Positions 16,462 to 60,978 of a stretch of DNA of 64,000 bases are shown in pieces. This DNA comes from Escherichia phage vB_EcoM_ULIM3. A program made the translations under genes and the position numbers. The DNA lies in the sequence record OQ850289. One strand, 5' to 3'. Under the pieces are notes generated by a model. It was not told the DNA's origin and searched no databases. It saw only the letters and a program-made list of their open reading frames with translations. Positions within the stretch are counted from its first letter, which is position 1; every line of letters begins with the position of its first letter.

Positions 16462-16719
16462 TCACCCAATAACAGTAGTGTGTGATTGACCATTTTTGCC
16501 ATAGCTATAAGATGTTGTTGTTTGAGAGTTTGGACACCTGACAACAACAATGTCTCTGCTTATGGCATCACCATGTAACTTATAGACTCTGCAATCTTGC
16601 ATCTCTGGTGGGAGGCTATAAGAAGCGTTTTTGTCCTCGTAAGAGGGATTACAGCCAGATAGAAAAATTACTCCAAGTGCAACCATTGCTTTCACACAAC
16701 TCTCAACCTTATTGTTCAC
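16462..16719 (-). CDS. putative lipoprotein
   Basis: 85 aa; signal peptide ending in lipobox-like LSGC. Confidence 0.55.
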   Translation of the reverse strand: MNNKVESCVKAMVALGVIFLSGCNPSYEDKNASYSLPPEMQDCRVYKLHGDAISRDIVVVRCPNSQTTTSYSYGKNGQSHTTVIG

Positions 16720-16851
16720 GATAGTCTACCTCTCTGTATGTTTTTAAATAGTGAGTGATGAGTTCTGGTAATTCACTACGTTTAACGTTTGAACGAAGAA
16801 GTGTCCAGTCAAAACCTTTACCAACCCTTCCCCAGAGACTGTACATTTTCT

Positions 16852-17085
16852 TCATAGCAACTCCAGAATATCAATACGTTCACCTTTGAGTACTCCAGTA
16901 CGGTCTTTTGCAATCTTACCTTCAACAATAAGAATGTGTGCAGACCTTAAAGTGTCACTGTTAAAGGCTTTTACGAACTTGCTAGGCATCACTACAATAC
17001 ACATCTCCTGAATCAACTCTGGAGTATAGCAATTGTCGTGAAGTTGCTGAATAACGTCTGCAAGTGTCATTTTTGATGTCTCCAA
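16852..17085 (-). CDS. small protein, paralogue A
   Basis: 77 aa; shares the motif GKIAKDxTGxLKGERxxIxxLL with 17273-17491. Confidence 0.55.
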   Translation of the reverse strand: METSKMTLADVIQQLHDNCYTPELIQEMCIVVMPSKFVKAFNSDTLRSAHILIVEGKIAKDRTGVLKGERIDILELL

Positions 17086-17276
17086 TACTCAATATCAATA
17101 AGTTCTTGTGCAATGCTTTTCAGATTACCTTTCAAGAAAACCTTCTCAGAACCTGAAAGAGATGAATTGTCAATTAACCTGTTCATTCTCTCAAACAACT
17201 TCTGCTTACGATTCTTGATAGTTTCCTTTGAAGCACCTTTCATCATCGCTGCATGGGTTCTTCCACGGTGGCTCAT
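17067..17276 (-). CDS. small basic protein
   Basis: 69 aa ORF between the two paralogues. Confidence 0.45.
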   Translation of the reverse strand: MSHRGRTHAAMMKGASKETIKNRKQKLFERMNRLIDNSSLSGSEKVFLKGNLKSIAQELIDIEYWRHQK

Positions 17277-17491
17277 AGTAAACTCTCAATATTTACACGC
17301 TCACCTTTCAAGTATCCTGTCTTATCTTTTGCGATTTTGCCTCCAGCGATAAAGATATCTACTCTACGTAGAACTTCAGGGTTTACCTTCAAATTCCTAC
17401 AGCTACTGCAAAGAACAATAAACAGCCCTTCAATCTCTTTTTGAGAGTAACCAGCACATTGCAACTGGACTTCAATTTCTGAAAGTGTCAT
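17273..17491 (-). CDS. small protein, paralogue B
   Basis: 72 aa; C-terminal motif shared with 16852-17085. Confidence 0.55.
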   Translation of the reverse strand: MTLSEIEVQLQCAGYSQKEIEGLFIVLCSSCRNLKVNPEVLRRVDIFIAGGKIAKDKTGYLKGERVNIESLL

Positions 17492-17552
17492 GTGACCTCC
17501 TATACAAGATACAGTATAAGGTACTCTTCCATGAGCACCTTGTCAATACTAA

Positions 17553-20252: not shown

Positions 20253-20424
20253 TTTTACTCCCTCTAAAATCATTAACCTCATACATTACTGCAAAAAATT
20301 ATAAAAAGCAAGTTGACAATGTACTTGACAAGGTGTTAATCTTTGCGAAGTGGGTTTTTACTTAAAAGGTTACTTAACAGTTTAACTATACAGATACTTT
20401 AAAACTCTTAAAAGATTATTTAAT

Positions 20425-22559: not shown

Positions 22560-22760
22560 ATGAAGATGAGAGTAAAAGATAATTTTAAAGTTATTGACCA
22601 TCGTTTAGTGGAACTCTCATCTCTTTCCAATGAGGTAATGATTGAACGTCTTAAGAGAGTTGAATCACGAAGGAAAGAGATTGCAGATGAGATTCATGAA
22701 CTGGACAAGATTGAAAATGGATTGAAGGCAGAACTACAACGAAGAGGTGCTAATGTCTAA
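22560..22760 (+). CDS. hypothetical protein
   Basis: 66 aa ORF, coiled-coil-like. Confidence 0.4.
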   Translation: MKMRVKDNFKVIDHRLVELSSLSNEVMIERLKRVESRRKEIADEIHELDKIENGLKAELQRRGANV

Positions 22761-29337: not shown

Positions 29338-31572
29338 ATGATTAAGACAATTAAAAAATCAAACGGTACAGTAGTAAGCTTTGACCCAGAAAGACTGAAT
29401 AAGTGGGCATCATGGGCAGATAAGCGTGGAATCATCTGGTCAGAAGTCACTATGGAAGCCATGAAACGTGTCTATGAAGGTTGCACTACAAAAGAGATGC
29501 ACCAAGCTATGATTGATGTTTGTGTTGATAAACAAACTCAAGAGTACTCAGACATGGCTGGGCGGCTACTTCTGGGGATTATCTACAAAGAAGCCTTTGG
29601 GGGCTTTACTAAGGTTCCTACGCTGATTACCTTCGTTAAAAATATGGAGAGAGCAGGACTTTGGGAGAAGATGGATTATTCACAGGAAGAGCTTGAATAC
29701 CTGCAAGGTTACATCGTGCACTCAAAAGATATCTCTTACGGTTATGCAGTCTTGAAACAGTTCAGAGACAAGTACGGCATCCGTGATATTAAAACGGGAA
29801 GACTGTTTGAGTCACCACAATTTATGTTTATGGGTATGGCTATGAAAGCCTTTGAGAAGCAACCAAAGCACCGTAGACTGCAAGATGTTATCAAGCTGTA
29901 CACTTACCTATCTGACCTGAAGATTAACGCTCCTACGCCTTATTTAAACGGTTTAAGAGCCACCAAGTCAGGCTATGCGTCATGCTGTTTGATTAAGGCA
30001 AATGATACTGCTGAATCACTTGGTATTGCTGCAAAGGTTGCTTATGATATGACTACAAAGCAAGCTGGTATTGGTATGCTGATGGAGACTCGCACTATTG
30101 GTGATGGTATCCGTCAAAATACTATTGAGCACATGGGTAAACTACCTTATTACAAGCTTGTACGTTCATCTGTAGAGGCAAACAAACAGAAGAGTCGTGG
30201 TGGTTCAGCTAATAACTTCTACACTGCTCTAGACCCGCAGATTGAAGATTTACTGCGTTTGAAGCACCCTACAACGGTTCCTTCTAAACGTATTAATGAG
30301 ATGGACTACTCATTCGGCACAAACGATTATTTCTGGCAGTGTGTTCAGTATGATACAGATTGGTTGCTATTCTCTTACAAAGATGCACCAAAACTCTATG
30401 ATATGTTCTACACAGCATCTGCTGATGAGTTTGCTATGGCAGTTGGTCACGCAGTACATTCAGGAGTTAAGCACAGACGAGTCAAGGCTCGTGAAATTGC
30501 TAAGCTGTTTATTCAACAGCGTTATGCTACAGGTCGTGTGTATCCATTCTTCACTAACAACGCAAACACACATACACCATTTAAAGAACCATTGAAGATG
30601 TCAAATCTTTGTATGGAAATTGTATTGCCAGTGTATGGTTTTGAGAAAGAGACAGACCTTTACAGAGACGATGCTGTGAAAGAGGATGGTGAGGTGGCTC
30701 TTTGCTTCCTAGCTAGTTTGGTTGCAGGGAGAATTTCAGAAGATGAATACGCTGACGTTGCTTATTATGCTCTTGCAATGGTTGACTCCGTTATTGACCT
30801 TATGGATTATCCGTATCCGTCGATGCGTAACCATGTTCAGAAGCGTCGTTCTGTTGGGATTGGCCTTACAAATGTGGCTCATTACCTTGCGAAGAACTAC
30901 GTGAACTACTCTTCACGAGCAGGTAAAACGAAACTTCATGAACTTGCAGAGATGCACTCTTACTATCTGCATGAAGCCTCGCTGAGACTTGCTAAAGAAC
31001 GTGGCGTGCCAGAGTACATGAAGTTCACTAAGTATCCTGAAGGCTGGGTTCCTCCAAAGACAGCTAACAAGAAGATTGATGAAAAGCATGATGCAAAACT
31101 ACGATATGATTGGGATGACTTAGCACAACGTATCAAAGAAAATGGTGGAATCCGAAACTCTGTATTAGAAGCTTACATGCCTAATGAGAGTTCTTCACTA
31201 GCAACTAATACGACAAATGGCTTGTACCCAATTCGTGACTTTATTTTAACTAAAAAGTCTGCAACTGGTAACGTGCTGTTTATTGTTCCAGATTATGAAG
31301 AGTTGAAGTATGTCTATGAAATTGCTTGGGGTATTGACACCTTTGACCTGATTGATTGTTATGCAATTGTTCAAAAGTTCACTGGTCAAGCTATCTCTTC
31401 AGATTTCTATGTTGACTACGCAAAAGCTAAGAAGGTATCATTGGCTCAAGCTTTGAAGTACATGATTTATGCCAACTCGGTAGGTATGAAAACCATGTAC
31501 TACCTTAACAGTCGCATTGGTGTAGGTAAATCTGCACTGCAAGATGCTTATTGCGAGGGTTGTGGTGTTTAG
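29338..31572 (+). CDS. nrdA: ribonucleotide reductase class I alpha subunit
   Basis: 744 aa; N-terminal ATP-cone-like region (VVSFDPERL), large-subunit size, immediately followed by nrdB and glutaredoxin. Confidence 0.85.
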   Translation: MIKTIKKSNGTVVSFDPERLNKWASWADKRGIIWSEVTMEAMKRVYEGCTTKEMHQAMIDVCVDKQTQEYSDMAGRLLLGIIYKEAFGGFTKVPTLITFVKNMERAGLWEKMDYSQEELEYLQGYIVHSKDISYGYAVLKQFRDKYGIRDIKTGRLFESPQFMFMGMAMKAFEKQPKHRRLQDVIKLYTYLSDLKINAPTPYLNGLRATKSGYASCCLIKANDTAESLGIAAKVAYDMTTKQAGIGMLMETRTIGDGIRQNTIEHMGKLPYYKLVRSSVEANKQKSRGGSANNFYTALDPQIEDLLRLKHPTTVPSKRINEMDYSFGTNDYFWQCVQYDTDWLLFSYKDAPKLYDMFYTASADEFAMAVGHAVHSGVKHRRVKAREIAKLFIQQRYATGRVYPFFTNNANTHTPFKEPLKMSNLCMEIVLPVYGFEKETDLYRDDAVKEDGEVALCFLASLVAGRISEDEYADVAYYALAMVDSVIDLMDYPYPSMRNHVQKRRSVGIGLTNVAHYLAKNYVNYSSRAGKTKLHELAEMHSYYLHEASLRLAKERGVPEYMKFTKYPEGWVPPKTANKKIDEKHDAKLRYDWDDLAQRIKENGGIRNSVLEAYMPNESSSLATNTTNGLYPIRDFILTKKSATGNVLFIVPDYEELKYVYEIAWGIDTFDLIDCYAIVQKFTGQAISSDFYVDYAKAKKVSLAQALKYMIYANSVGMKTMYYLNSRIGVGKSALQDAYCEGCGV

Positions 31573-31627
31573 TTTTAACAACTATGAGGGTCGTAAAAGA
31601 CCCTCTAAAAATAACTTTGGAGAGACC

Positions 31628-31885
31628 ATGAAAGATTTAATAGAAAAACATGAGCGACCAATATACTTGCTCTACAAACCCCGCAAAACATTGTACTATG
31701 TGAGCAGCACAGGTATCATGATAAAGCAGAATGATGACTTATGGGTCACTGGAGCATCTTACATCTCTACAGCAGATGGTAAAATCTACGCAAGACCTTA
31801 TGAGATGTTTAACAAAGAGAATTGGGAAGTTTTAGACAGAAAACAAGCCTTAGAAATGATAAAGAAAGGAGAAATCACGCTATGA
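31628..31885 (+). CDS. hypothetical protein
   Basis: Track ORF 31544-31885 trimmed to ATG 31628 (MKDLIEK) with GGAGAG SD. Confidence 0.4.
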   Translation: MKDLIEKHERPIYLLYKPRKTLYYVSSTGIMIKQNDDLWVTGASYISTADGKIYARPYEMFNKENWEVLDRKQALEMIKKGEITL

Positions 31886-32955
31886 TTAACCAGCACCCAA
31901 TCTTTTTAGGTGGTGAGAGAAAAACTTTTGACTCACTTAATAAGCACTACCCAAAAATCTTCGAACTTTATAAACAACAAAAAGCACAAGACTGGTCAGA
32001 AGATGAGTTCCCTTTTGAACAATCACGTCTTGATTTTGAGAGTGTCCCAGCATCAATGTCAGGTGTAATGCTTGAGATTCTTAAGTGGCAGTGGGAAGCA
32101 GACACTCAAGTTGCTAAGAGCTTGGCATTTGCCTTTGCACCCTTTATCTCTGATGACATCTATGCAACTGCAATTATGAAGCAGTCTGAGATTGAAAACC
32201 TACACGCTCTTACTTACTCAGAGATTGTAAGACAATGTATTAAAAACCCTGAAACAATCTTAGATGAGATTAACCAGAATGTTGCTGTACAAGACCGATT
32301 AAAAACTGTGAATCGTGTTCTTGAAGAATTACTGGATGAAGGTATAAACTATCGTCTGAGTTATGTGCGTGACTCACTTCTGGACAAAGACCCTTTACAC
32401 TTCCATAAAGTGATTCTAAAAGGTCTATTTGCAGTGACTGCACTTGAAGGTATTTCTTTTATGGCATCTTTTGCATGTACTTTTGCACTTGATGCTCAAG
32501 ATAAATTTCAAGGTATTGCTCAAGCTGTCCAGAAAATTATGCTTGACGAAATCCTTCACACTAAAATTGATATTGAAGTTTTAAAAGAAACTTTAAGAGA
32601 TGATGAGTGGCAAAAAGCTTTCCAACAAATTCTTCCAGAGATTAAAGTAATCTTAGATGAAGTAGTTGAAAGTGAAGAGAAATGGTCGTATTATATCTTC
32701 TCCGAAGGACGTGCTGTAGTTGGGTTAAATACAAAGCTTCTTCATGAGTGGGTTTACTATAATGCTGCCCCACTGTATGATATGTTTGGCATTCCCAGAG
32801 ATTTTGTAGCTCCTAAAGAACCACCTTTGAAGTATATGATTAAGAAGATGGAAATTGATAAAGAGCAGAATGCTAATCAGGAGCAACAGAACGGTGCGTA
32901 TTTATTGAATACTATTGTAGATGATTTGAATAGTGGATTTTTAGAGGTTCCTTAA
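31882..32955 (+). CDS. nrdB: ribonucleotide reductase class I beta subunit
   Basis: Start set to ATG 31882 with AAGGAG SD; small-subunit size, directly after nrdA. Confidence 0.8.
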   Translation: MINQHPIFLGGERKTFDSLNKHYPKIFELYKQQKAQDWSEDEFPFEQSRLDFESVPASMSGVMLEILKWQWEADTQVAKSLAFAFAPFISDDIYATAIMKQSEIENLHALTYSEIVRQCIKNPETILDEINQNVAVQDRLKTVNRVLEELLDEGINYRLSYVRDSLLDKDPLHFHKVILKGLFAVTALEGISFMASFACTFALDAQDKFQGIAQAVQKIMLDEILHTKIDIEVLKETLRDDEWQKAFQQILPEIKVILDEVVESEEKWSYYIFSEGRAVVGLNTKLLHEWVYYNAAPLYDMFGIPRDFVAPKEPPLKYMIKKMEIDKEQNANQEQQNGAYLLNTIVDDLNSGFLEVP

Positions 32956-33197
32956 TGACTTATGTAATTTACTCCAAAACTGGATGCCCTCAGTGTGAGA
33001 CTGCAAAGAATTTTGCGAAAGCTCGTGGTATTGACCATGTTGTGAGAATGTTAGGGCAGGATTATGAACTGCCAGACCTGATGGATATTGCACAGATGCC
33101 AGTTCGTCAGATGCCATTCATCATGAAAACTGACGGTCAAAACCTAAAACCTGTTGGGACGCTACAGAATTTTATGGCAGAGGTGAATAATGCTTAA
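32955..33197 (+). CDS. glutaredoxin-like protein
   Basis: 80 aa; N-terminal CPQC redox motif (YSKTGCPQCETAK). Confidence 0.75.
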   Translation: MTYVIYSKTGCPQCETAKNFAKARGIDHVVRMLGQDYELPDLMDIAQMPVRQMPFIMKTDGQNLKPVGTLQNFMAEVNNA

Positions 33198-33396
33198 ACG
33201 CATTTGGGAAGGTTTGGTTGTTGATGCACCAGCTATTGTGATTGGTATGCTGATTGTTAACCTATTTACTGACTTTGAACAAGGTTCATTGTTTGGAGCC
33301 ATGTTACTATGGGTTATCTTCGAAATATTAGAGATACAGCTAGGCATCACTGAAAAACTAAGAAAACTCGTTTCAAAGTTTTCTAAAAAGATTTAA
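33190..33396 (+). CDS. small membrane protein
   Basis: 68 aa hydrophobic ORF. Confidence 0.4.
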   Translation: MLKRIWEGLVVDAPAIVIGMLIVNLFTDFEQGSLFGAMLLWVIFEILEIQLGITEKLRKLVSKFSKKI

Positions 33397-33401
33397 AATG
33401 A

Positions 33402-33425
33402 AAGGGTCTCTTCGGAGACCTTTTT
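33402..33425 (+). terminator. intrinsic terminator
   Basis: GGGTCTC-TTCG-GAGACC followed by TTTTT. Confidence 0.7.
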
Positions 33426-33444
33426 AGCATGTAAAGGTGCAATA

Positions 33445-35589
33445 ATGAACAAAGTACAGATTATTAAAAAGAATGGCTCACTTGAAGAACCTGATATCAA
33501 AAAAGTTTTAGCAGCAGTAACTAAGTCAGCTAACAGGGTTGGATATAAAGAACTCCCACCAGATGTTACCCAAGCTCTTGAGTCAGCATTCATGAGGATT
33601 CTGGTAAAGTCCACTAAGCAGAATAATTTACTCATCTCAGTCAATGATATTCACAGCATTGTTGAGGGTGCTTTGGCAGAAGTCAATCACGAGATTTATG
33701 AGTCTTACTCAACATACAGAAATTACCGGAAAGAGGTTGCTCAAAATTGGGATGAGCTTTACCAAAAGACTAGAGACACGCTCTTCTTAGGTGACCGTGA
33801 AAACGCTAACTTTGACAGCAGTTTAATTTCTACAAAAGGTTCAATTATTCGTGGTTACCTGACTAAAGAAATCTTTAAGCAGTACCATTTAACACCAGAG
33901 GAACTTGAAGCCATTGAAAAAGGGTTTATCTACATCCATGACTTAAGAGACCTGATTTTTGGCGGCATTAACTGTTGCTTGTTTGACATTGGTAAAGTAC
34001 TGAAAGGTGGCTTTGAAATGTCTGGCATCGAATACTGTGAACCGAAGTCTGTACTGTCAGCCTTACAGGTTATTGGTGATGTAGTTCTTTCAGCAACTGC
34101 ACAGCAATTTGGCGGCTTTACTTTAGCAGAGATTGATAAGGTACTTGTACCGTATGCTAAGAAGTCTCTACGCTACCATGCTGAGAAAGCAGCATCTTAT
34201 GGTATTCCTAAAGAACATTACCATAATTATATCATGGAGCAGCTACAGATTGAATTAACTCAAGGTTTTCAGTCACTTGAAATGAAACTGAACACTGTAC
34301 CTTGCAGCCGTGGTGATTTCGCATTCACAACTTTAACATTTGGTTTACTTGACTCAGATATGTCTAATGAAGACAACCGACTACAATACATGATTGCAAG
34401 TACTCTCCTAGATGTTCGTATGAATGGACAAGGTAAGAGCAAAAAACCTGTTGTATTCCCTAAACTTGTTTATATCTACGACCAGAAGAGACATGATGAA
34501 AATATCTGTCAAGGTCACCTGTACAGTAAAGCTATTGAGTGTTGCTCTAAAGCAATGTATCCAGATTTCTTAAGTGTATCTGGTCATGGTGCTGTAGCAG
34601 AGGCTTTTGAGCGTTCTGGTAAGGTGATTTCACCGATGGGTTGCAGAGCCTTCTTATCTCCATATCTTAATGAGGATGGGGAAGAGTTCTATGTTGGTCG
34701 TGCTAACATTGGTGCTGTATCTTTGAACTTGCCAATGATTTACCAGTATTCTAAAGAGAATGGTTTAGATTTCTGGAAAGAGCTTGATAAGTACCTAGAG
34801 ATGATTCGCAGCTTCCACAAGAAACGCTACGAAATGATTGCTAATATGCCAGCAAGTTCTAACCCTCTTGCATTCACACAAGGTGGTTTGTACAAAGGTA
34901 TTAAGAAACCTACTGATAAGGTTGGTTGGGATATTGTGAAGTCCTTCACAGCTTCTTTTGGGGTTACCGCACTGGATGAGTTATCTGTTCTTGCTGAAGG
35001 TAAACGGCTGCATGAAGCTGGGAGCTATAGTTTTGCATACGATGTTCTGGCATACATTAACATGAAAACTGAAGAGTTTAAAAATGAAGATGGCTTCTTA
35101 TATGCTGTCTATGGTACTCCAGCAGAATCACTTTGTGGAACTCAGCTAAAACAGTTCAGAGAAATGTTTGGTGTTATTAAAGGCGTTTCTGACAAGGAAT
35201 ACTTTACAAACAGTTTCCATATGAATGTTACGGCAGACATCTCACCATTTGAGAAGCAGGACTTAGAAGAGCCATTCTTCCATATCTGTAGAGGTGGCAG
35301 AATCCAGTATGTAAGGGTAGCTAACCCAGAAAACTTAACAGCACTTAAAAGTTGTATTACCAGAGGGATGTTGAAGGGTTTTTATCAGGGACTTAACTTT
35401 GACTTAGCAATCTGTGAGCATTGTGGTAACAGACCAAAGGCTGATGTTGAAGAATGTGAGGTTTGCCATTCACATGATATCTCTGTGATTAACAGGGTGT
35501 GTGGGTATCTTGGGTGGACTAAGATTAAAGGCGAATCCCGAATGAACGATGCAAAAATTGCTGAGATTCGTGACAGAATCTCTATGTAA
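33445..35589 (+). CDS. nrdD: anaerobic ribonucleoside-triphosphate reductase
   Basis: 714 aa; C-terminal Cys cluster CEHCGN..CEVCH and glycyl-radical motif RVCGYLG. Confidence 0.85.
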   Translation: MNKVQIIKKNGSLEEPDIKKVLAAVTKSANRVGYKELPPDVTQALESAFMRILVKSTKQNNLLISVNDIHSIVEGALAEVNHEIYESYSTYRNYRKEVAQNWDELYQKTRDTLFLGDRENANFDSSLISTKGSIIRGYLTKEIFKQYHLTPEELEAIEKGFIYIHDLRDLIFGGINCCLFDIGKVLKGGFEMSGIEYCEPKSVLSALQVIGDVVLSATAQQFGGFTLAEIDKVLVPYAKKSLRYHAEKAASYGIPKEHYHNYIMEQLQIELTQGFQSLEMKLNTVPCSRGDFAFTTLTFGLLDSDMSNEDNRLQYMIASTLLDVRMNGQGKSKKPVVFPKLVYIYDQKRHDENICQGHLYSKAIECCSKAMYPDFLSVSGHGAVAEAFERSGKVISPMGCRAFLSPYLNEDGEEFYVGRANIGAVSLNLPMIYQYSKENGLDFWKELDKYLEMIRSFHKKRYEMIANMPASSNPLAFTQGGLYKGIKKPTDKVGWDIVKSFTASFGVTALDELSVLAEGKRLHEAGSYSFAYDVLAYINMKTEEFKNEDGFLYAVYGTPAESLCGTQLKQFREMFGVIKGVSDKEYFTNSFHMNVTADISPFEKQDLEEPFFHICRGGRIQYVRVANPENLTALKSCITRGMLKGFYQGLNFDLAICEHCGNRPKADVEECEVCHSHDISVINRVCGYLGWTKIKGESRMNDAKIAEIRDRISM

Positions 35590-39788: not shown

Positions 39789-41570
39789 ATGAGTAAGTCA
39801 CTTTACGCAGTACCAGCAGGTCTTAATGCAGATGCTTACAAGGCATCACATATATATCAGTATCCAGATGCTACGCAATATCTTATGTTGAACCTGACAC
39901 CACGTAGTGACAAATGGTTTAACAGCCCCTTAGCAATTGATGGTGTAGTAGCTTTTGGTATTCAACGTTTCGTTAAAGATTACTTGATAGACCACTGGAA
40001 CGCCACTTTCTTTGAACGTGATAAAAAAGAAGCCATTGATGAAATCTTAGAAGTCATGAATGGTGTTCTGGGTAAAGATGCTATCAGTCGAGAGCATTGG
40101 GAAGCACTTCACGACTTAGGTTATCTACCAGTTGAAGTATACGCTGTAGAAGAAGGTACAGTTGTCCCTATGCGTGTCCCAATGATTGTTTTCCAGAACA
40201 CTGTTTCAGGTTTCCATTGGGTAGCAGGTTATCTGGAAGATGCTTTCTCTGCTGAGATTTGGAAGGCTTGTACCATTGCAACTATTGCATTGCACTACAA
40301 ACGTATCTGTAAGAAGTGGGCTGACCTTACTTGTGACAATGACTTACATTTACCTTATCAGTGCCATGATTTTGCTATGCGTGGTATGTCCGGCTTTACT
40401 GATGACGCATTTAATGCTGTAGGTCACTTAACCAGCTTTAAAGGGACTGATAGCTTCCCTGCTGTGTACACAGCTAAACGCATCTATGGACAGTCCTACC
40501 CAATTTCTGATATTGGTAGTTCTGTACCAGCCACTGAACACTCTGTCATGTGTGCAAACATTGCTTGGGAAGGTGGTAATGAGTTGATTGAAGAGGAAAG
40601 ACGCTTTAAAGGTGAGTTACAAACCTTCCGTCGTTTCTTAACAGAAACTTACCCAACTGGTATTGCAAGTATTGTTTCAGATACTTATAACTTCTGGAGA
40701 ACTGTGTCAGAAATCTTACCAGCACTCCGTAAAGAAATTATGGAACGTGATGGTAAACTGGTAATTCGCCCTGACTCTGGAGACCCTGTACATATTGTCA
40801 CAGGTTATAAAGCAATCCACTTAGAGTGTGCTAAAAAGGCTTATTACGAGCACCTAAGCAAGCTTGAAGCCAGCGACACAATGTTGAATGCTGTTCTGAA
40901 CATGAAGCTTGAAAACATCAACTATGGTGTTGCTGGATGGCTACTGTCAGAAGGCTACGAAATGGTTGTTGACAGAGAAGACTTTGAAGTTGCTGATACA
41001 GTGCTGTTGAAAAACGCTTATATGGTTGGCTCTGCAAACGTTGTAACACGTCCTGTAGCGGAGATTGATGGAGCTATCAAGACACTGTATAACATCTTTG
41101 GAGGAACTATCAACTCTAAAGGTTTTAAAGTACTGGATGAGCATATCGGGCTTATTTATGGCGACTCTATCACGTTGGAACGTGCAAACGAAATACTGAA
41201 GCGTTTGTATGAAATGGGTTTTGCAAGCTCTAACGTAGTGTTTGGTGTAGGTTCTTACACTTACCAGTACATGACTCGTGACACCTTTGCATTTGCTGTC
41301 AAAGCAACTCTTGCAAGCATTGGTGGTAAAGAGATTATGCTTGCAAAAGACCCTAAAACAGATAGTGGTGTTAAGAAGTCTGCTTTTGGTGGTGTAGCAC
41401 CTATGTGGGATGGTGAAAATCTGAAAGCTGTCGATGGCTATGGGTTCCAGAGCTTTGCAGATGCACTTGAACACCCAGCTTGTGCTTTACGTCTAGTCTT
41501 TAGCGACTCTGAGCAGTTCGGCTACACGACTCTTGGTGATATTCGAAATAATATTGACAAGCAGCTTTAA
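39789..41570 (+). CDS. nadV: nicotinamide phosphoribosyltransferase family protein
   Basis: 593 aa; size and overall similarity to NAMPT/NadV-type enzymes; gene symbol tentative. Confidence 0.7.
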   Translation: MSKSLYAVPAGLNADAYKASHIYQYPDATQYLMLNLTPRSDKWFNSPLAIDGVVAFGIQRFVKDYLIDHWNATFFERDKKEAIDEILEVMNGVLGKDAISREHWEALHDLGYLPVEVYAVEEGTVVPMRVPMIVFQNTVSGFHWVAGYLEDAFSAEIWKACTIATIALHYKRICKKWADLTCDNDLHLPYQCHDFAMRGMSGFTDDAFNAVGHLTSFKGTDSFPAVYTAKRIYGQSYPISDIGSSVPATEHSVMCANIAWEGGNELIEEERRFKGELQTFRRFLTETYPTGIASIVSDTYNFWRTVSEILPALRKEIMERDGKLVIRPDSGDPVHIVTGYKAIHLECAKKAYYEHLSKLEASDTMLNAVLNMKLENINYGVAGWLLSEGYEMVVDREDFEVADTVLLKNAYMVGSANVVTRPVAEIDGAIKTLYNIFGGTINSKGFKVLDEHIGLIYGDSITLERANEILKRLYEMGFASSNVVFGVGSYTYQYMTRDTFAFAVKATLASIGGKEIMLAKDPKTDSGVKKSAFGGVAPMWDGENLKAVDGYGFQSFADALEHPACALRLVFSDSEQFGYTTLGDIRNNIDKQL

Positions 41571-55504: not shown

Positions 55505-55561
55505 ACAAGCCTGATAAAAATCTGTAAATTGTCAATCAACGGGGAGGGAATGACCTTCCCC
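55502..55561 (+). promoter_or_regulatory. early promoter cassette 4
   Basis: TAGACA-17-TAAATT (TGn extended -10) then GGGGAGGG..CCTTCCCC hairpin. Confidence 0.55.
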
Positions 55562-55595
55562 ACTAAGTACAATCCTTAAACTAGGAGATTCAAAA

Positions 55596-56065: not shown

Positions 56066-56124
56066 TTGCAATCAACTATCAAAACAAGTAAATTACTAAT
56101 CAACGGGAAGGCAATAACCTCCCC
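56066..56124 (+). promoter_or_regulatory. early promoter cassette 5 (variant hairpin)
   Basis: TTGCAA-17-TAAATT then GGGAAGG-CAATAA-CCTCCCC hairpin. Confidence 0.55.
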
Positions 56125-56156
56125 ACTAAATAAAGTCCTAAACTGGAGATTCTAAA

Positions 56157-56687
56157 ATGAACAAATTTCAAGCTATCAACTTCATTCGTTCAAATGCTGT
56201 AATGTCTAAGCCTGTAAAAGATACATACGAATTCCGTTGTAATGGGGTACATTTCGCAACAATCACCAAATCAGAAAACGGGGCTTATTACGTTCATCGT
56301 CGTAATGTCTCAACCGTTGTAGTCTCTCACTTTATGCAAGCTGTAGCGGAATTATTACCGTTATTCTTAGAGATTTATCTAGATGAGTGTAAAAACGTTC
56401 ACAACCACGTTAAAAGCCTTTTAAACGGTTATAAAATGGCTTATGAACGCTCTATCAAGTCCTTAAACAAGTTTTACAATGCACCTGCAAATACTGTTTC
56501 AATGGCTTATGATGTAAACGGTGAGTTAGTTAGTCTCTTTAAAGTGGAAGAAATTAAGCTGTATAATTTACGTCCTAGTGGTTACTCTAAGACTCTTGGT
56601 GAAGGTTTATCATTTAATATCAAGAACTTAGAAAAAACTTTAAAAGACATTGAAAAAGATATTGACGAGATAATCAAAAGTCTGTAA
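56157..56687 (+). CDS. hypothetical early protein
   Basis: 176 aa ORF. Confidence 0.55.
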   Translation: MNKFQAINFIRSNAVMSKPVKDTYEFRCNGVHFATITKSENGAYYVHRRNVSTVVVSHFMQAVAELLPLFLEIYLDECKNVHNHVKSLLNGYKMAYERSIKSLNKFYNAPANTVSMAYDVNGELVSLFKVEEIKLYNLRPSGYSKTLGEGLSFNIKNLEKTLKDIEKDIDEIIKSL

Positions 56688-56721
56688 ATTGTCAATCAAC
56701 GGGGAGGGAATGACCTTCCCC
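56662..56721 (+). promoter_or_regulatory. early promoter cassette 6
   Basis: TTGACG-17-TAAATT then GGGGAGGG..CCTTCCCC hairpin. Confidence 0.6.
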
Positions 56722-56753
56722 ACTAAATAAAGTCCTAAACTGGAGTTATCAAG

Positions 56754-57017
56754 ATGGAAAACGTAGAATTAACCACACTTTTACAAATTGCAACTGACAA
56801 AGAAGATGTAGCACTGTTTCACCGTATCGAAAGCGATTTATTCAATGGTGAAATCATCAAAGAATCTTATGAAGTTGTCGGATTCAAAGATGGTAAAGCG
56901 TTTGGCTTTTTTGACCTCGACAAAGGCAACGCTGTCACAAAGTATGATGTTGTATCTTGTGAGATTCTTACAAAATACAACGAAAAAAGGCTTGCAACAT
57001 ACGCCAATATGCAGTAA
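56754..57017 (+). CDS. hypothetical early protein
   Basis: 87 aa ORF. Confidence 0.5.
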   Translation: MENVELTTLLQIATDKEDVALFHRIESDLFNGEIIKESYEVVGFKDGKAFGFFDLDKGNAVTKYDVVSCEILTKYNEKRLATYANMQ

Positions 57018-57049
57018 ATTACTAATCAACGGGAGGCGATAACCTCCCC
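56992..57049 (+). promoter_or_regulatory. early promoter cassette 7 (variant hairpin)
   Basis: TTGCAA-17-TAAATT then GGGAGG-CGATAA-CCTCCC hairpin. Confidence 0.55.
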
Positions 57050-57083
57050 ACTAAATAAAACCCTTAAACTAGGAGATTCAAAA

Positions 57084-57332
57084 ATGGCAACTATCCGCGC
57101 TACTGTCAATGCCTATGGCTGTTATACTCTGGACGTTAAATTCGATATTGGTGGAACTGATGAGTGTTTTTCATTAGTGAAGACAGTTATCAAACAAGTT
57201 ATTCCAGATTATAACCCTACTGATGACTTCTGGAAAGATGCTGTAAAAGAGGCATTAAACGACGAGCATCACTATCATTACTGGGGTGACTTGATTGTTT
57301 CCCTGTACTACAATAAACAAGGTTACAACTAA
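57084..57332 (+). CDS. hypothetical early protein
   Basis: 82 aa ORF followed by tandem hairpins. Confidence 0.5.
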   Translation: MATIRATVNAYGCYTLDVKFDIGGTDECFSLVKTVIKQVIPDYNPTDDFWKDAVKEALNDEHHYHYWGDLIVSLYYNKQGYN

Positions 57333-57342
57333 TCGACGCAAC

Positions 57343-57397
57343 GGGGCTAAATAGCCCCAGATACCTCAACAGCCCCTGTTTAAAGGGGCTTTTTTAC
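57343..57397 (+). terminator. tandem stem-loops ending in an intrinsic terminator
   Basis: GGGGCT-AAAT-AGCCCC then AGCCCCT-GTTTAA-AGGGGCT followed by TTTTTT. Confidence 0.7.
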
Positions 57398-57399
57398 GT

Positions 57400-58940
57400 C
57401 TATTGAATCCTTATACAATCCCTTTCCAGAATCTTATCAGACCTTAAAAGCAATAACTCTATAGTCTACTCTATAACCTCTTATCAAATCAACTTAAATA
57501 AAAGCCAATAACCCCAGAAAGGGGATGGCCCATTTAAACGCTCTATAAAGCTCTATAACAGCCTTATCAACCTAACTTAAGGGATTGCATTACCTCACCC
57601 TAAAAAGCCCTTTATAAAGCTTCTCAGAGCCTTAAAAGAATCTTATAAGGGTGTAAGCTTTATCATCTCATTAGTATTCTTGTGAATAACTAAACAACCC
57701 CTTGATAGTCACTAAAAAGTATGTTATAGGGGGCTTTAAAGTTACTTTGAAGTAGCTTAAAAGTTACGTAAAAGAGGCTATAAAGTTACGTAAATGCTAG
57801 CCCCCTTAACATTTTCTTAACAATTTCTTAACAATCCCTACATAGTTATGCTTTTAAGGCACTTGTTAGCAACTTGTTAGCCCCTTGTTAAATCTCTGTT
57901 AAGACCACGTAAAAGCCTTGTAAGAGTCTTTGACATAGCCTTAAAAGCTCCTGTAAAGCCCTATAAAGAGGTATCTGTACAGTTGGGGGATAGATACTAG
58001 GAAGAGGTTTAAAAGAGGCTATAAAGAGCTATAGAGAGCTTTTAAGAGGTATGTTTAAGGAATCACTAAGAAGCAAAGGGAACGATAAGAAAAGAGTAGT
58101 GACCATGTTAATAGCTTGTTAAAAAGATTAAACACTTGTTAAAAACTTGTTAATTATCTTAACAAAATAACTCTTAAAAATTAACTTGTTAGCTCTTGTT
58201 AGTCATCTGTTAAGAGACTATAAAGACCATGTATCGACTGTTAAGAACTTGTTACAGCCTTGTTAGTTCTGTTAAGAATCTGTTAAGACCTTTGAAGAGT
58301 TGTTAAGAAGATGTGAGAGCTGTTAAGAGATTGTTAAGGATATTTTAAAATTTTGCAAAGTACTTGTAAGGGAGCTGTTAAGGGCTACCAAGCAGATATA
58401 CATCTTCTACAGATATTTTTGAGTTCCTTCAAAGACCCTAAAAAATGACTTGATAGTCCTATTTTATAAAAATTTTAAGATTCTGAATAATTACCTATAC
58501 AGTCTTTTAAAAATACAGGCAGAAACAGGCTTATAAGATACCTTGTTAGTACCGTGTTAGACCTTGTGAGATAAGGTCTGTAAAGATATTCCTGTTAAGT
58601 TTGTTAAAACAGTCTATATAGAGGCTTAGTATTCCCTAGTGAACACCTATAGAGAGTGTCATAGGTAACATAGAGATTAAGAGGTGTATAGGAGCTTCTA
58701 AGAAGGTGTAGAGAGATGGTTAAGGTGATTGTATAGGTTGTTAAGAAGGCTTGTTAGAAGAGTGTTTAGAAGGGCTATACAGAGGGGCTATTAAGACCAC
58801 TAGATAGTTACTAAGATACTATATAGTACTATATAACTATATATAGAGAGTAAGATTAAGAAGGTTGTTAAGAAGGGTAGATATTTTATTCACATATGAT
58901 GGTGACCCAGAGGTTGGGACAACCGATAAAATTTTATAAA
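57400..58940. repeat. ORF-free region dense in short degenerate motifs
   Basis: No ORF >60 aa on either strand; >25 copies of (C/T)TGTTA(A/G)(G) and CTATAAAG-like motifs; purine-rich + strand; between convergent units. Confidence 0.7.
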
Positions 58941-58968
58941 AATTAAAAAGCCCCCGATTAAGGAGGCT
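58938..58968 (-). terminator. putative intrinsic terminator for the minus-strand cluster
   Basis: Minus-strand reading: GAGCCTCC-TTAATC-GGGGGCT followed by T-rich run. Confidence 0.45.
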
Positions 58969-58979
58969 CTTAAGATATT

Positions 58980-59528
58980 TTAAATCAGTGTTTCCAGAAC
59001 TGTTTTTAATGATGACTTGGTTGTCTGATAAAAATGAGTAAATCCATTGTTGTTATCAAATACCTGCATCATGATATCATCTCCCTTGATTGGGTACACT
59101 CGGATATCATAGTGAAAACCATTAAAGACACAAGAACCACTACAGAATGCTCTAAAGTCATCCACTGAGATGTACTCTTCATGACCTGTGATTTTTATAC
59201 AAACACCTTTACTCGGTCTCTTAGGGTTGATATCTTCCATCACAGACATACTCTGTCCACCAAGAGATACCATAGTGACTACTTTACGGTTCTTCTGTCT
59301 AAAGTACATCTTAACTTTCTGCAAAGTGTCTTCATAGAACGGATAAGACCTTTCTACAAAGATTCCTTCAAGTGGCTCTTTACCATTTTCAACTTCTCTG
59401 TTATGCCGTACTGCAAAGATAATTTGTTCGAACCAGTCAAGATTTTCTTCGGAGAGTGCTTCCCGAATATCACTCCAATCAAGAACTAGATAGTTACCTT
59501 CAACTTCTTTTAAGTTATCTTTTTCCAT
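58980..59528 (-). CDS. hypothetical protein
   Basis: Track ORF starts at a TTG codon (59573); first ATG is at 59528 (MEKDNL). Confidence 0.5.
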   Translation of the reverse strand: MEKDNLKEVEGNYLVLDWSDIREALSEENLDWFEQIIFAVRHNREVENGKEPLEGIFVERSYPFYEDTLQKVKMYFRQKNRKVVTMVSLGGQSMSVMEDINPKRPSKGVCIKITGHEEYISVDDFRAFCSGSCVFNGFHYDIRVYPIKGDDIMMQVFDNNNGFTHFYQTTKSSLKTVLETLI

Positions 59529-59541
59529 ATCTATCACACCA

Positions 59542-60006
59542 TTATCGTAAAACTTGGTAAGCTGGAACTGCAAACTTGTTGCCGTTGTTCTTAATGAGGT
59601 CTTCTTCTGTTACTAAGAATGTAATCCCACACAAGTGTGTGTAGTGGCTACCATACTCAAATATTTTAAGTAAGTATTTACCATCGTGATAAACAGATTC
59701 TACTACACCTTTTGCAACAATCTTTCCAGTCTTGAAATCTTTAAGAGGGTATACATTACCAACTTTAGGGACTGTTTTCATCTCAGGTTCTTTTAGCTTC
59801 TCACTAACTTCTACATCACCTAGTAAGTGAGAACTTTCAAACGCTACATATTGCATATAGGCTTCTGAGCATTCCCAGATAAAACAATGTACAAGAACCT
59901 TAGCAGCATGTCTTGAGCAATTTAACTTATCACAAATTTCTTTGTACATTTCGTCTTTAGTTGAGTTGTCAAGCATTGCTTTTTGAACTACTTCTTTAAC
60001 TTTCAT
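59542..60006 (-). CDS. hypothetical protein
   Basis: 154 aa ORF. Confidence 0.5.
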   Translation of the reverse strand: MKVKEVVQKAMLDNSTKDEMYKEICDKLNCSRHAAKVLVHCFIWECSEAYMQYVAFESSHLLGDVEVSEKLKEPEMKTVPKVGNVYPLKDFKTGKIVAKGVVESVYHDGKYLLKIFEYGSHYTHLCGITFLVTEEDLIKNNGNKFAVPAYQVLR

Positions 60007-60427: not shown

Positions 60428-60700
60428 TTAAATCCTATCAATTTGAAACTCTTCAGGTAACTCAGCCACCACTTTTAAATAGTAAGCATCAGAGATTGTA
60501 TGCTTTGTCTCATAGCTACCATTCTTAATCCAGTTATAATTTTCTGGTATTCCATCATCATTACAAAAACCTGAGTACATAATTGCTCTGTGGATTATAT
60601 TTTTATTAGAGTATGCAACATCTACAATATAGTATGTTTTTTCTTTCCAACCACCTTCAGGTTTACAAATACCTGAGATACCCTCTAATTCTGGTGTCAT
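60428..60700 (-). CDS. hypothetical protein
   Basis: 90 aa ORF. Confidence 0.45.
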   Translation of the reverse strand: MTPELEGISGICKPEGGWKEKTYYIVDVAYSNKNIIHRAIMYSGFCNDDGIPENYNWIKNGSYETKHTISDAYYLKVVAELPEEFQIDRI

Positions 60701-60753
60701 TTCACTACCTTCTAAGTTTCTACAAAGGGGCTATCAAGTAACCCCTTAATCTA

Positions 60754-60978
60754 TTACTCAGACTTTTCAGTCTTCTTATCGGATTTCTTACTGGTCTTCT
60801 TCTCAGCTTTCTGTTCAGGTTCCTTCTCAGAAGTTGCCTTGATAAACATATCAAGAAGCTCTGATAAGTCACTTTTCAGCAAAGTAACAGGCTGCTCATT
60901 GTAGAAGTTTTTGTCAAGATAAACTTTGAACTCTTCTATAGAAGGAAATCCAAAAATTGGTACAGGTGTCTTAATCAT
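60754..60978 (-). CDS. hypothetical protein with lysine-rich C-terminus
   Basis: 74 aa ORF. Confidence 0.45.
   Translation of the reverse strand: MIKTPVPIFGFPSIEEFKVYLDKNFYNEQPVTLLKSDLSELLDMFIKATSEKEPEQKAEKKTSKKSDKKTEKSE

What the first reader, a model, noticed from the sequence alone, without database searches (positions are those of the whole stretch)
57400..58940. 1.6 kb ORF-free, motif-dense region between convergent transcription units
Phage genomes are normally gene-dense, yet this region has no ORF above 60 aa on either strand. It is saturated with short degenerate motifs (CTTGTTAG, CTGTTAAG, TTGTTAAG, CTATAAAG; over 25 copies, often tandem at 7-12 bp spacing) and is purine-rich on the + strand. 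It is bracketed by terminators from both sides. Candidates are a replication origin or packaging site, a physical genome end or terminal repeat, a binding-site array for a phage DNA-binding protein, or a non-coding RNA locus.
Basis: seen in the sequence. Interest (0 to 1): 0.7.

Follow-up and report, generated by a model that had tools for sequence, protein, structure and literature searches.

The report
Phage genome ends with phased repeats
The 1.6-kb gene-free, motif-packed stretch is where this Felix O1-like phage's linear chromosome begins and ends: a 590-bp terminal repeat plus two flanks, all built from short motifs spaced one DNA turn apart. The ends were already known for this genus; the motif array appears undescribed but resembles what phage T7 has at its ends.

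Summary
Window 57333-58979 has no ORF above 31 aa. It holds 64 CTNNNNAG units against 11 +/- 3 in shuffles, and 19 neighbouring pairs lie 10-11 nt apart against 0.15 expected.

The window is a Felixounavirus, 99.9% identical to phage ULIM8. The centre of the gap, 57800-58389, is the direct terminal repeat (DTR) of the virion DNA.
- Four relatives deposited with both repeat copies start and end at the same bases.
- A fifth relative annotates a DTR within 2 nt of those edges.
- A Mooglevirus shows the same layout.
- UAB_Phi87's ends were mapped experimentally to 608 bp; its box-to-box distance is 614 bp.

Both edges lie in invariant boxes. The whole junction is about 70% identical across genera, against 49-74% for the neighbouring genes.

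The layout is shared by 13 genomes of three genera:
- a C-rich left flank with CTWWWWAG units
- a DTR with about 20 forward and 4 inverted TGTTA units
- a G-rich right flank

TGTTAA arrays and a right-edge box also persist in Erwinia phage phiEa21-4. T7's concatemer junction has comparable CCTAAAG arrays.

Most likely this is the packaging and cutting site, with the arrays acting as a platform for an unidentified recognition protein. That role is inferred, not shown. Interest is moderate to low.

The parts
57371..57390 (+). Intrinsic terminator closing the rightward (+) gene block that runs toward the genome's right end
   Evidence: Terminator scan. Annotated as a terminator in ASO1A.
57333..57799 (.). 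Left unique flank of the concatemer junction (the last unique DNA before the right-end DTR copy). It is C-rich on the + strand and holds 18 CTNNNNAG units, mostly the A/T-only type (CTTAAAAG, CTATAAAG, CTTATAAG). It has almost no TGTTA.
   Evidence: Pr103Blw and HP1 have 457 and 472 bp between the last gene and the DTR.
57511..57526 (-). Small G+C hairpin followed by a T-rich run on the - strand (terminator-like). It is kept as a hairpin in two allelic forms, CCCCAGAAAGGGG and CCCGAAAGGG, across three genera. Its role is unknown.
57763..57793 (.). Two copies of the palindrome-containing box GTTACGTAA, 22 bp apart, immediately outside the left DTR edge
   Evidence: Sequence. The proximal copy is nearly invariant in 13 genomes.
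57782..57849 (.). Left-edge box, a nearly invariant block spanning the left cut site: AAAGTTACGTAAATGCTA|GCCCCCTTAACA...CTACATAGTTAT
   Evidence: Alignment. The box is unique in the window.
57800..58389 (.). Direct terminal repeat (DTR), 590 bp. It is present once here because the assembly is collapsed or circularly permuted, and twice in virion DNA. Base 57800 is the first base of the left genome end and 58389 the last base of the right genome end.
   Evidence: Mapping of the Pr103Blw DTR. Identical edges in CRP22, D4 and NBEco005, and within 2 nt in UAB_69. HP1. UAB_Phi87 experimental DTR.
57805..57833 (-). Three inverted copies of the core unit (CTTAACA, the reverse complement of TGTTAAG) at 11-bp spacing, at the very left edge of the DTR. 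They form an inverted repeat with the forward copies at the right edge.
   Evidence: (inverted repeats I1, I3).
57862..58382 (+). Forward array of about 20 (T)TGTTA(A/G) units at 10-11 bp spacing, interspersed with CTATAAAG-type units. This is the bulk of the DTR.
   Evidence: The count of 18-23 forward and 3-5 inverted units is conserved in 13 genomes.
58147..58165 (.). Head-to-head pair TTGTTAA-ttatc-TTAACAA, about 60 bp right of the DTR midpoint, inside a 30-nt block that is nearly invariant across three genera. It looks like a candidate site for a dimeric protein.
58381..58402 (.). Right-edge box AGGGCTACC|AAGCAGATATACA, 22 consecutive invariant positions centred on the right cut site. It is followed by a second CAGATAT 17 nt downstream (58393-58399 and 58410-58416).
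   Evidence: AAGCAGATATACA is also found in phiEa21-4.
58390..58979 (.). Right unique flank (the first unique DNA after the left-end DTR copy). It is G-rich on the + strand and holds 18 CTNNNNAG units, including 7 forward TGTTA. A near-invariant island lies at 58525-58567 (three 11-bp units), and a predicted curvature peak lies near 58437.
58946..58971 (-). Intrinsic terminator closing the leftward (-) gene block that runs toward the genome's left end
   Evidence: Annotated as a terminator in ASO1A.

Best explanation
The gap is the concatemer junction of a Felixounavirus, the place where unit genomes are cut out of replicated head-to-tail DNA and packaged.

Shown, about 0.9 confidence:
- Bases 57800-58389 are the short exact direct terminal repeat of the virion chromosome.
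- The 467 bp to its left and the 590 bp to its right are the unique DNA next to the right and left genome ends.
- Both flanking gene blocks are transcribed toward the ends and stop at terminators.
- The two ends lie inside sequence boxes that are nearly invariant across three genera.

Inferred, about 0.45 confidence:
- As in T7-type phages, the terminase makes sequence-specific cuts or nicks at the two edge boxes, and the repeat is duplicated by strand-displacement synthesis so that every packaged genome carries a copy at each end. The large subunit is a Terminase_6-type enzyme encoded outside the window.
- The roughly 64 CTNNNNAG units, especially the 24 or so TGTTA(A/G) units filling the repeat, sit one per helical turn on one face of the DNA. 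They would serve as a cooperative binding platform for the recognition component of the packaging machinery.
- That component is still unidentified. No small terminase subunit is recognisable in these phages.
- The inverted units at the left edge and the forward units at the right edge would give the two cut sites mirror-image contexts.
For: Identity of the genome: 99.9% to phage ULIM8, and 254 Felix O1-like records match.

Position of the ends:
- Pr103Blw opens and closes with an annotated 581-bp terminal repeat. PhageTerm reports DTR-mode packaging (PMC8303462). The repeat maps to window 57800-58389.
- Records from other sources, CRP22 (579 bp), D4 (581 bp) and NBEco005 (651 bp), carry exact repeats with edges at the same bases. 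UAB_69's annotated DTR agrees within 2 nt.
- Mooglevirus HP1 has an annotated 570-bp repeat with the same edges and the same flank lengths.
- UAB_Phi87's ends were mapped by Bal31 digestion and run-off sequencing to a 608-bp DTR, and cos ends were excluded (PMC4837284). The distance between its two edge boxes is 614 bp.

Constraint on the sequence:
- The edge boxes are invariant in 13 genomes of three genera and unique in the window.
- The junction is 70% identical between genera, against 49-74% for the adjacent genes.
- The CT/AG anchor bases are more conserved than spacer bases, 0.79 against 0.72.
- Indels come in 11-12 and 22-26 nt steps.

The array:
- The tripartite motif and skew layout is conserved in all 13 genomes.
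- In the distant phiEa21-4, the syntenic gap keeps TGTTAA at 18.5 per kb against 1.0 per kb background, at 11-nt spacing, and keeps the AAGCAGATATACA box. Its left-flank repeat is different, TTCTAA.

T7 precedent, checked from sequence: 13 same-orientation CCTAAAG copies lie in and around the 160-bp DTR, eight of them in a 13-nt phased array.
Against: - No sequencing reads are available for this phage, so its own ends are inferred from identical edge sequences in relatives.
- The experimental DTR length for UAB_Phi87 (608 bp) differs by 6 bp from the box-to-box distance (614 bp).
- The two cut sites are not exact mirror images. The cut falls 0 and 4 nt from the shared GCCC...TTAACA core.
- Nothing shows that terminase or any other protein binds the arrays.
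- No small terminase subunit is annotated or detectable next to TerL. Only a 66-aa protein of unknown function lies there. The proteins flanking the junction also have no known domains.
- To my recollection, the function of the analogous T7 arrays is itself unproven. The paper library did not let me check this.
Confidence: 0.75

Rival explanations
1. The arrays form a telomere-like nucleoprotein structure unrelated to terminase recognition. A phage or host protein coats the phased sites at both chromosome ends. Its job would be to protect them from exonucleases such as RecBCD, to pair the two ends for circularisation or concatemer formation, or to control DNA ejection, like the repeat-rich injection-stop region recalled for T5.
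For: - The TGTTA units are concentrated inside the repeat, so they are present at both ends of every virion DNA.
- The units are phased one per helical turn and conserved in four genera.
- An invariant head-to-head pair resembles an operator for a dimer.
- The PhageMaP preprint states that Bas63, a Felixounavirus, lacks a RecBCD inhibitor.
Against: - No candidate binding protein was found.
- There is no Chi site in the region.
- The strongest conservation is exactly at the cut sites, which points to the cutting machinery.
- Two-step injection is not known for Felix O1-like phages (my own knowledge).
Confidence: 0.15
2. The region is, or also contains, a replication origin. The repeats would be iterons for an initiator.
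For: - It is a large non-coding region with direct and inverted short repeats, slightly more A+T-rich than the genome (GC 0.34 against 0.38).
- Two DnaA-box-like 9-mers (TTATTCACA) occur in this phage.
- The GC skew changes sign inside the region.
Against: - The DnaA-like boxes are lost or altered in most relatives.
- No initiator-like gene is adjacent.
- The skew switch coincides with motif orientation and with the change in gene direction, and needs no origin.
- The replication genes are T7-style (family-A polymerase and a primase-helicase). To my knowledge such systems do not use iteron-binding initiators.
Confidence: 0.06
3. The region is a non-coding RNA or transcription-control locus. 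Possibilities are a leftward transcript ending at the 57526-57511 hairpin, or an array of -35-like TTAACA hexamers that titrates host RNA polymerase.
For: - The reverse complement of TGTTAA is TTAACA, which matches 5 of 6 positions of the -35 consensus.
- A 10/12 promoter-like site lies on the - strand at 58244-58217, and a - strand terminator-like hairpin lies at 57526-57511.
- That hairpin is kept in three genera.
Against: - Promoter-like sites are not enriched: 14 found against 10.8 +/- 3.5 in shuffles.
- The best promoter-like site lies in the least conserved block and is deleted in Mooglevirus and Suspvirus.
- No Rfam family matches.
- No transcriptome data for this genus exist in the searchable literature.
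Confidence: 0.03
4. The motifs are functionless. They would be slippage-generated repeats that accumulate in the only DNA not under coding constraint, and only the two cut sites matter.
For: Indels occur in whole repeat units, as expected from slippage. DTR length varies from 570 to 651 bp among relatives.
Against: - The whole 1.6 kb is as conserved between genera as the neighbouring genes.
- Unit number, orientation and partition among the three parts are constant in 13 genomes.
- The TGTTAA core and the 11-nt phasing survive in a genus with no detectable DNA similarity.
- Compact phage genomes rarely keep 1.6 kb of neutral DNA.
Confidence: 0.01

Closest known systems
Short exact direct terminal repeats of Felix O1-like phages (Felixounavirus and Mooglevirus DTRs, e.g. 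UAB_Phi87, Pr103Blw, UAB_69, HP1)
   Same: - The locus and the edge sequences are the same, to the base or within 2 nt.
- The size class is the same, 570-651 bp.
- The neighbouring genes are the same.
- UAB_Phi87's ends were mapped experimentally (PMC4837284).
   Different: Nothing differs for the repeat itself. However, the source record (ULIM8) and most of the 254 related records do not annotate it or open the genome there. None of the papers I could read describes the internal motif array or the edge boxes.
Bacteriophage T7 concatemer junction: 160-bp terminal repeat with adjacent arrays of the short repeat CCTAAAG. I recall these being called SRL and SRR in Dunn and Studier 1983.
   Same: - The DTR sits inside a gene-poor zone.
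- One short degenerate A/T-rich motif is repeated in a single orientation inside the repeat and in phased tandem arrays in the flanks.
- Ends are sequence-specific.
- The replication proteins are T7-style.
- The motifs even look alike: CCTAAAG and CATAAAG in T7, CTTAAAAG and CTATAAAG here.
   Different: - T7 has 13 copies at 13-nt phasing, mostly outside the repeat. Here there are 64 units at 10-11 nt phasing, the TGTTA class fills the repeat, and the flanks differ in motif type and skew.
- T7's junction carries promoters (A0, phiOL, phiOR). No conserved promoter is seen here.
- The virus families differ (podovirus Autographiviridae against myovirus Ounavirinae), and homology of the terminases or of the motifs was not tested.
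- The function of the T7 arrays is, to my recollection, not established.
Terminase recognition sites made of several phased short repeats (SPP1 pacL/pacR, lambda cosB R sites, P1 pac hexamers). Recalled from memory, not checked here.
   Same: Several copies of a short site near the cleavage site, spaced about one helical turn apart, bound cooperatively by an oligomeric small terminase subunit.
   Different: - Those sites have 3-7 repeats over 100-200 bp. Here there are about 64 over 1.6 kb.
- Those phages have an identified small subunit. None is recognisable here.
- SPP1 and P1 package by headful with permuted ends. Here the ends are fixed.
- Predicted intrinsic curvature, a feature I recall for SPP1 pac, is not exceptional here.
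Plasmid centromere-like arrays such as R1 parC (ten 11-bp repeats bound by ParR). Recalled from memory.
   Same: Tandem 10-11 bp phased short repeats that would place a small DNA-binding protein on one face of the helix.
   Different: There is no partition system, no ParR- or ParM-like gene nearby, and this is a lytic linear phage genome. It is a resemblance of form only.

Membership tests
Short exact direct terminal repeat (DTR) genome ends with fixed, non-permuted termini | The same sequence is present at both ends of the virion DNA | tested here: met
   Relatives deposited with both ends carry exact repeats: Pr103Blw 581 bp, CRP22 579, D4 581, NBEco005 651, HP1 570. They map to window 57800-58389. 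This was tested in relatives, not in this phage's own virion DNA.
Short exact direct terminal repeat (DTR) genome ends with fixed, non-permuted termini | Ends fall at a fixed, sequence-defined position | tested here: met
   The edges are identical to the base in four records and within 2 nt in a fifth. They lie inside invariant boxes that are unique in the window.
Short exact direct terminal repeat (DTR) genome ends with fixed, non-permuted termini | Experimental demonstration of the ends (exonuclease sensitivity, run-off sequencing) | tested here: met
   This comes from the literature, not from my own data. UAB_Phi87's ends were mapped by Bal31 plus run-off sequencing, giving a 608-bp DTR and no cos ends (PMC4837284). 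The box-to-box distance in that genome is 614 bp, a 6-bp discrepancy.
Short exact direct terminal repeat (DTR) genome ends with fixed, non-permuted termini | Twofold read coverage and read-start pile-ups at the edges in this phage itself | not testable with these tools
   No sequencing reads are available for the window's source.
Short exact direct terminal repeat (DTR) genome ends with fixed, non-permuted termini | Large terminase groups with DTR-generating terminases | not tested
   TerL lies outside the window. In ASO1A it is a Terminase_6N/6C protein. PMC4837284 reports that Felix O1-like TerL proteins form their own DTR cluster.
T7-type concatemer junction with short-repeat arrays | Phased arrays of one short motif inside and beside the terminal repeat | tested here: met
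   for this window, and for T7.
T7-type concatemer junction with short-repeat arrays | Common descent with T7 (homologous terminase or homologous motif) | not tested
   The virus families differ. The motif resemblance (CCTAAAG against CTTAAAAG) may be chance. I file this as 'works like', not 'is a member'.
Iteron-type replication origin | Conserved initiator or DnaA binding sites, with an adjacent initiator gene | tested here: not met
   The DnaA-like boxes are not conserved. Neighbouring proteins have no Pfam domain and only unknown-function PHROGs.
Headful pac site | Circularly permuted, terminally redundant ends | tested here: not met
   The ends are fixed to the base in independent isolates.
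Known non-coding RNA family (Rfam 15) | Covariance-model match at or near the gathering score | tested here: not met
   The only match is Phe_leader at 24.8 bits against a gathering score of 55, E = 0.43, lying over the terminator.

The most novel reading that the evidence does not exclude
The 24 or so TGTTA(A/G) units that fill the terminal repeat, together with the flanking CTNNNNAG arrays, would be the binding lattice of an unidentified sequence-specific protein conserved across the subfamily Ounavirinae.

That protein would build a telomere-like complex on both chromosome ends. It would either replace a classical small terminase subunit in pac recognition, or protect and pair the ends during infection.

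This would be a new type of phage end-recognition system in a well-known phage group that has no recognisable TerS.
Probability: 0.2. Interest if true: 0.6.

Novelty: new member of a known kind. Interest (0 to 1): 0.35.

Why it matters
Practical value:
- Most of the roughly 250 Felix O1-like records, including this phage's own record, are opened at arbitrary points and leave this region blank or carrying tiny spurious ORFs.
- The two invariant edge boxes let anyone place the true genome ends by sequence alone: ...GCTA|GCCCCCTTAACA on the left and ...GGGCTACC|AAGCAGATATACA on the right.

Biological value:
- Felix O1-like phages are widely used for Salmonella and E. coli typing and biocontrol.
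- Their packaging recognition is uncharacterised, and no small terminase subunit is known.
- A conserved lattice of about 64 sites with defined cut sites gives a concrete DNA substrate for finding the recognition protein, and for engineering packaging-competent vectors.

Tried and rejected
- Rfam scan of 56500-59800 at E <= 1: only a sub-threshold Phe_leader hit on the terminator.
- Promoter scan: no enrichment. The best - strand promoter-like site, 58244-58217, is not conserved.
- Intrinsic curvature as the reason for the phasing: a wedge-model calculation gives 8.2 degrees per turn for the gap against 7.6 window-wide, about the 12th percentile rank. Only two local peaks appear, at 58437 and 58933. 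The Bolshoy-Trifonov parameters were recalled from memory, and I validated the script on phased A-tracts. I rejected curvature as a general explanation.
- DnaA boxes, IHF sites and Chi: two DnaA-like boxes that are not conserved, one IHF-like match and no Chi.
- DNA-binding domains in nine flanking proteins, and in the 66-aa and 244-aa genes upstream of TerL: none found.
- Literature on this region: the Felix O1, wV8 and VpaE1 genome papers, the PhageMaP Bas63 preprint and genus-wide searches gave no description of the arrays and no transcriptomics.
- Papers on the function of the T7 short-repeat arrays: none in the searchable library. I used the T7 sequence itself instead.
- The exact 21-nt right-edge box in IMG/VR viral contigs: 28 contigs of about 51-94 kb, none above Ounavirinae genome size. 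I did not check their taxonomy, and I found no sign of a spread beyond this group.
- Hidden short genes: excluded, because stop codons saturate all six frames.
- Assembly artefact: excluded by 254 independent records.
Full report
**1. The observation**

The window region 57333-58979 (1647 bp) lies between the stop codon of a + strand gene (57084-57332) and that of a - strand gene (58980-59528 or 59573). The only ORF of at least 30 aa in it is a 31-aa TTG-initiated one. No frame has more than 49 stop-free codons. Terminator-like hairpins close both flanking gene blocks, at 57371-57390 (+) and 58971-58946 (-).

- There are 64 copies, against 11.2 +/- 3.1 (maximum 21) in 1000 dinucleotide-preserving shuffles. 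That is about four times the density of the rest of the window.
- Nineteen successive pairs are 10-11 nt apart, against 0.15 expected.
- All-pair distances peak at 10-11, 21-22, 31-33, 42-44 and 55 nt, so this is an array with a period of about 11 bp.
- The eleven densest 300-nt bins of the 64-kb window are all inside the gap.

The claimed purine richness is marginal, 53.7% against 52.0%. What is really there is a switch from C-rich on the left (GC skew about -0.35) to G-rich on the right (up to +0.54).

**2. What the genome is**

The region is 99.9% identical to Escherichia phage vB_EcoM_ULIM8. It matches 254 phage records, nearly all Felix O1-like (Felixounavirus and relatives), and 191 of them match over at least 80% of its length.

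Depositors annotate nothing functional here. They record at most short 'repeat_region' features, terminators, or tiny hypothetical ORFs. The Felix O1, wV8 and VpaE1 genome papers do not discuss the gap. The Felix O1 paper infers only 'short terminal repeats' from genome size.

**3. The physical ends lie inside the gap**

[quoted passage not shown] Its record starts and ends with that repeat. The last gene is followed by 457 bp and then the repeat. The first gene, the homologue of window 58980, starts 631 bp after the repeat. Aligned to the window, the repeat is 57800-58389, 590 bp.
- Three further records that carry both copies have exact repeats whose edges fall at the same bases...GTAAATGCTA|GCCCCCTTAACA on the left and ...GTTAAGGGCTACC|AAGCAGATATACA on the right. 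These are CRP22 (579 bp), D4 (581 bp; PhageTerm DTR per PMC11737134) and NBEco005 (651 bp).
- Salmonella phage UAB_69 annotates a DTR within 2 nt of those edges.
- Mooglevirus HP1, whose flanking protein is only 45% identical, has an annotated 570-bp repeat with the same edges and the same layout of 472 bp, repeat, 638 bp.
- PMC4837284 mapped the ends of UAB_Phi87 with Bal31 and run-off sequencing. It found a 608-bp DTR and no cos ends. In that genome the two edge boxes are 614 bp apart (the script's printed values are one too high). This agrees within 6 bp.

The gap is therefore the concatemer junction: right-end unique flank (57333-57799), terminal repeat (57800-58389), left-end unique flank (58390-58979). 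The assembly in the window simply holds one copy of the repeat.

**4. Anatomy and constraint**

I aligned 13 junctions from Felixounavirus, Mooglevirus and Suspvirus.
- Between genera the junction is 70% identical over its whole length. In the same genome pairs the two adjacent genes are 49-61% identical and the next genes out 52-74%.
- The non-coding DNA is therefore constrained about as much as coding DNA.
- The strongest conservation is at the edges. On the left it is a block of about 68 nt (57782-57849). On the right it is 22 consecutive invariant bases, AGGGCTACCAAGCAGATATACA (58381-58402), centred on the cut.
- Both boxes are unique in the window.
- Other near-invariant islands are a head-to-head pair TTGTTAA-ttatc-TTAACAA at 58147-58165, and three 11-bp units at 58525-58567.
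- Indels between genomes peak at 11-12 and 22-26 nt, so the array changes by whole units and keeps its phase.
- The CT/AG anchor bases are somewhat better conserved than interiors and spacers, 0.79 against 0.72.

The layout is tripartite and constant in all 13 genomes:
- The left flank is C-rich. It has 0-3 forward TGTTA copies and 6-10 A/T-only units (CTWWWWAG).
- The repeat has 18-23 forward TGTTA units and 3-5 inverted ones. Three of the inverted ones sit at its very left edge, at 11-bp spacing, which gives the repeat inverted termini.
- The right flank is G-rich, with 3-8 forward TGTTA.

The unit consensus is t-TGTTA-A-g, with little information outside the core.

In Erwinia phage phiEa21-4 (Kolesnikvirus), which shares no BLAST-detectable DNA similarity here, the syntenic 1188-bp gap shows the following:
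- TGTTAA at 18.5 per kb against 1.0 per kb background, at 11-nt spacing, with inverted copies followed by forward copies.
- A recognisable right-edge box, TTTTGCAAAG...AAGCAGATATACA.
- A C-rich left part that uses a different repeat, TTCTAA (12 copies, all in one orientation).

A conserved core motif with diverging surroundings is what one expects of sites read by a conserved protein.

**5. Mechanism**

Shown:
- The position of the terminal repeat.
- Sequence-defined ends.
- Transcription converging on the junction.
- Strong constraint on the edges and on the array.

Inferred by analogy with T7-type DTR phages, from established knowledge:
- Terminase recognises the junction in concatemeric DNA and cuts or nicks at both edges.
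- The repeat is duplicated by strand-displacement synthesis.

This phage also has a T7-style replication set, a family-A polymerase and a Toprim-DnaB primase-helicase.

I propose that the phased units are a cooperative binding platform for the recognition component. The large terminase of a close relative is a Terminase_6N/6C protein. No small subunit is annotated or detectable, and the gene just upstream encodes a 66-aa protein of unknown family. The nine proteins flanking the junction have no Pfam domains and only unknown-function PHROGs.

**6. Rivals**

- **End protection, end pairing or ejection control.** This fits the presence of the TGTTA lattice at both virion ends, and I cannot exclude it (0.15).
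- **Replication origin.** This gains nothing. The DnaA-like boxes are not conserved and no initiator gene is nearby.
- **ncRNA or transcription control.** This gains little. There is no Rfam hit, no promoter enrichment, and the best promoter-like site is deleted in two genera. A small - strand hairpin at 57511-57526 is kept in two allelic forms and remains unexplained.
- **Intrinsic curvature.** It does not explain the phasing. The gap's predicted curvature is ordinary, with local peaks only at 58437 and 58933 (the parameters were recalled from memory).
- **Neutral slippage repeats.** This is contradicted by the conservation data.

**7. Comparison with known systems**

The repeat itself is a member of the already known Felix O1-type DTR class, and all testable defining features are met in relatives.

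The closest mechanistic analogue is the T7 concatemer junction. From the T7 sequence I confirmed a 160-bp repeat with 13 same-orientation CCTAAAG copies: two before the repeat, three inside it, and eight just after it at 13-nt phasing.

The differences from T7 are:
- about five times more units here
- phasing of 10-11 nt instead of 13 nt
- concentration of the main motif inside the repeat
- distinct flank motifs
- no conserved promoters

Homology with T7 was not tested, so the claim is 'works like', not 'belongs to'. Resemblances to SPP1, lambda and P1 terminase sites and to plasmid parC arrays come from memory and concern form only.

**8. Verdict**

The finding is real and explained. It is the genome-end and packaging junction of a Felix O1-like phage.
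- The terminal repeat is already known for the genus, though it is unannotated in this phage's record and in most others.
[quoted passage not shown] They are a new instance of a known kind of structure.
- Interest is 0.35. A specialist would not be surprised by the identity of the region. The array does offer a defined handle on the unknown pac recognition of these phages.

Noticed in passing
window 1-64000: GATC is completely absent from the 64-kb window: 0 sites against 182 +/- 12 in dinucleotide-preserving shuffles. This implies strong avoidance of Dam or GATC-specific restriction sites.
   Followed up: partly
window 55524-55595, 56087-56156, 56648-56745, 57013-57083: Repeated intergenic cassettes of about 70 nt (hairpin plus ribosome-binding region) lie between the small + strand genes left of the junction. 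They appeared as mutual BLAST hits. They probably correspond to the intergenic direct repeats mentioned in the Felix O1 genome paper.
   Followed up: no
GenBank GU169904 (Staphylococcus phage SA1), about 135.9-137.6 kb: This 147-kb Staphylococcus phage record contains a 90% identical copy of the Felix O1-type junction and the neighbouring gene. This looks like a chimeric or contaminated assembly.
   Followed up: no
window 58353-58448; also small CDSs in UAB_69, UAB_Phi87, Michonne and D4 inside the homologous gap: Several records annotate 25-66 aa hypothetical proteins inside the junction, for example ULIM8's 31-aa CDS that spans the right DTR edge. They are not shared between records and are probably spurious calls.
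   Followed up: partly
window 60600-60900: This is the only place outside the junction with a raised CTNNNNAG density: 10-11 units per 300 nt, including two 11-nt spaced pairs around 60709-60731. It lies over the short gap between two small - strand genes.
   Followed up: no
window 57511-57526: A small G+C hairpin in the left flank occurs in two allelic forms, CCCCAGAAAGGGG and CCCGAAAGGG. Both can fold, and both are distributed across three genera. It is terminator-like on the - strand, and its function is unknown.
   Followed up: partly
window 17553-20282, 22747-24738, 29338-35589, 39789-41570: The window encodes a family-A DNA polymerase, a Toprim+DnaB primase-helicase, aerobic and anaerobic ribonucleotide reductases, and a NAMPT/NAPRTase-like enzyme. 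The last probably belongs to the NAD+ salvage genes that the PhageMaP preprint reports as counter-defence genes in Bas63.
   Followed up: no
L051 (phiEa21-4, NC_011811) 16472-17659: The Erwinia phage's syntenic gap likely contains its unannotated terminal repeat. A right-edge-like box (AAGCAGATATACA) lies at 17467, and a genus-specific TTCTAA array lies on the left side.
   Followed up: partly
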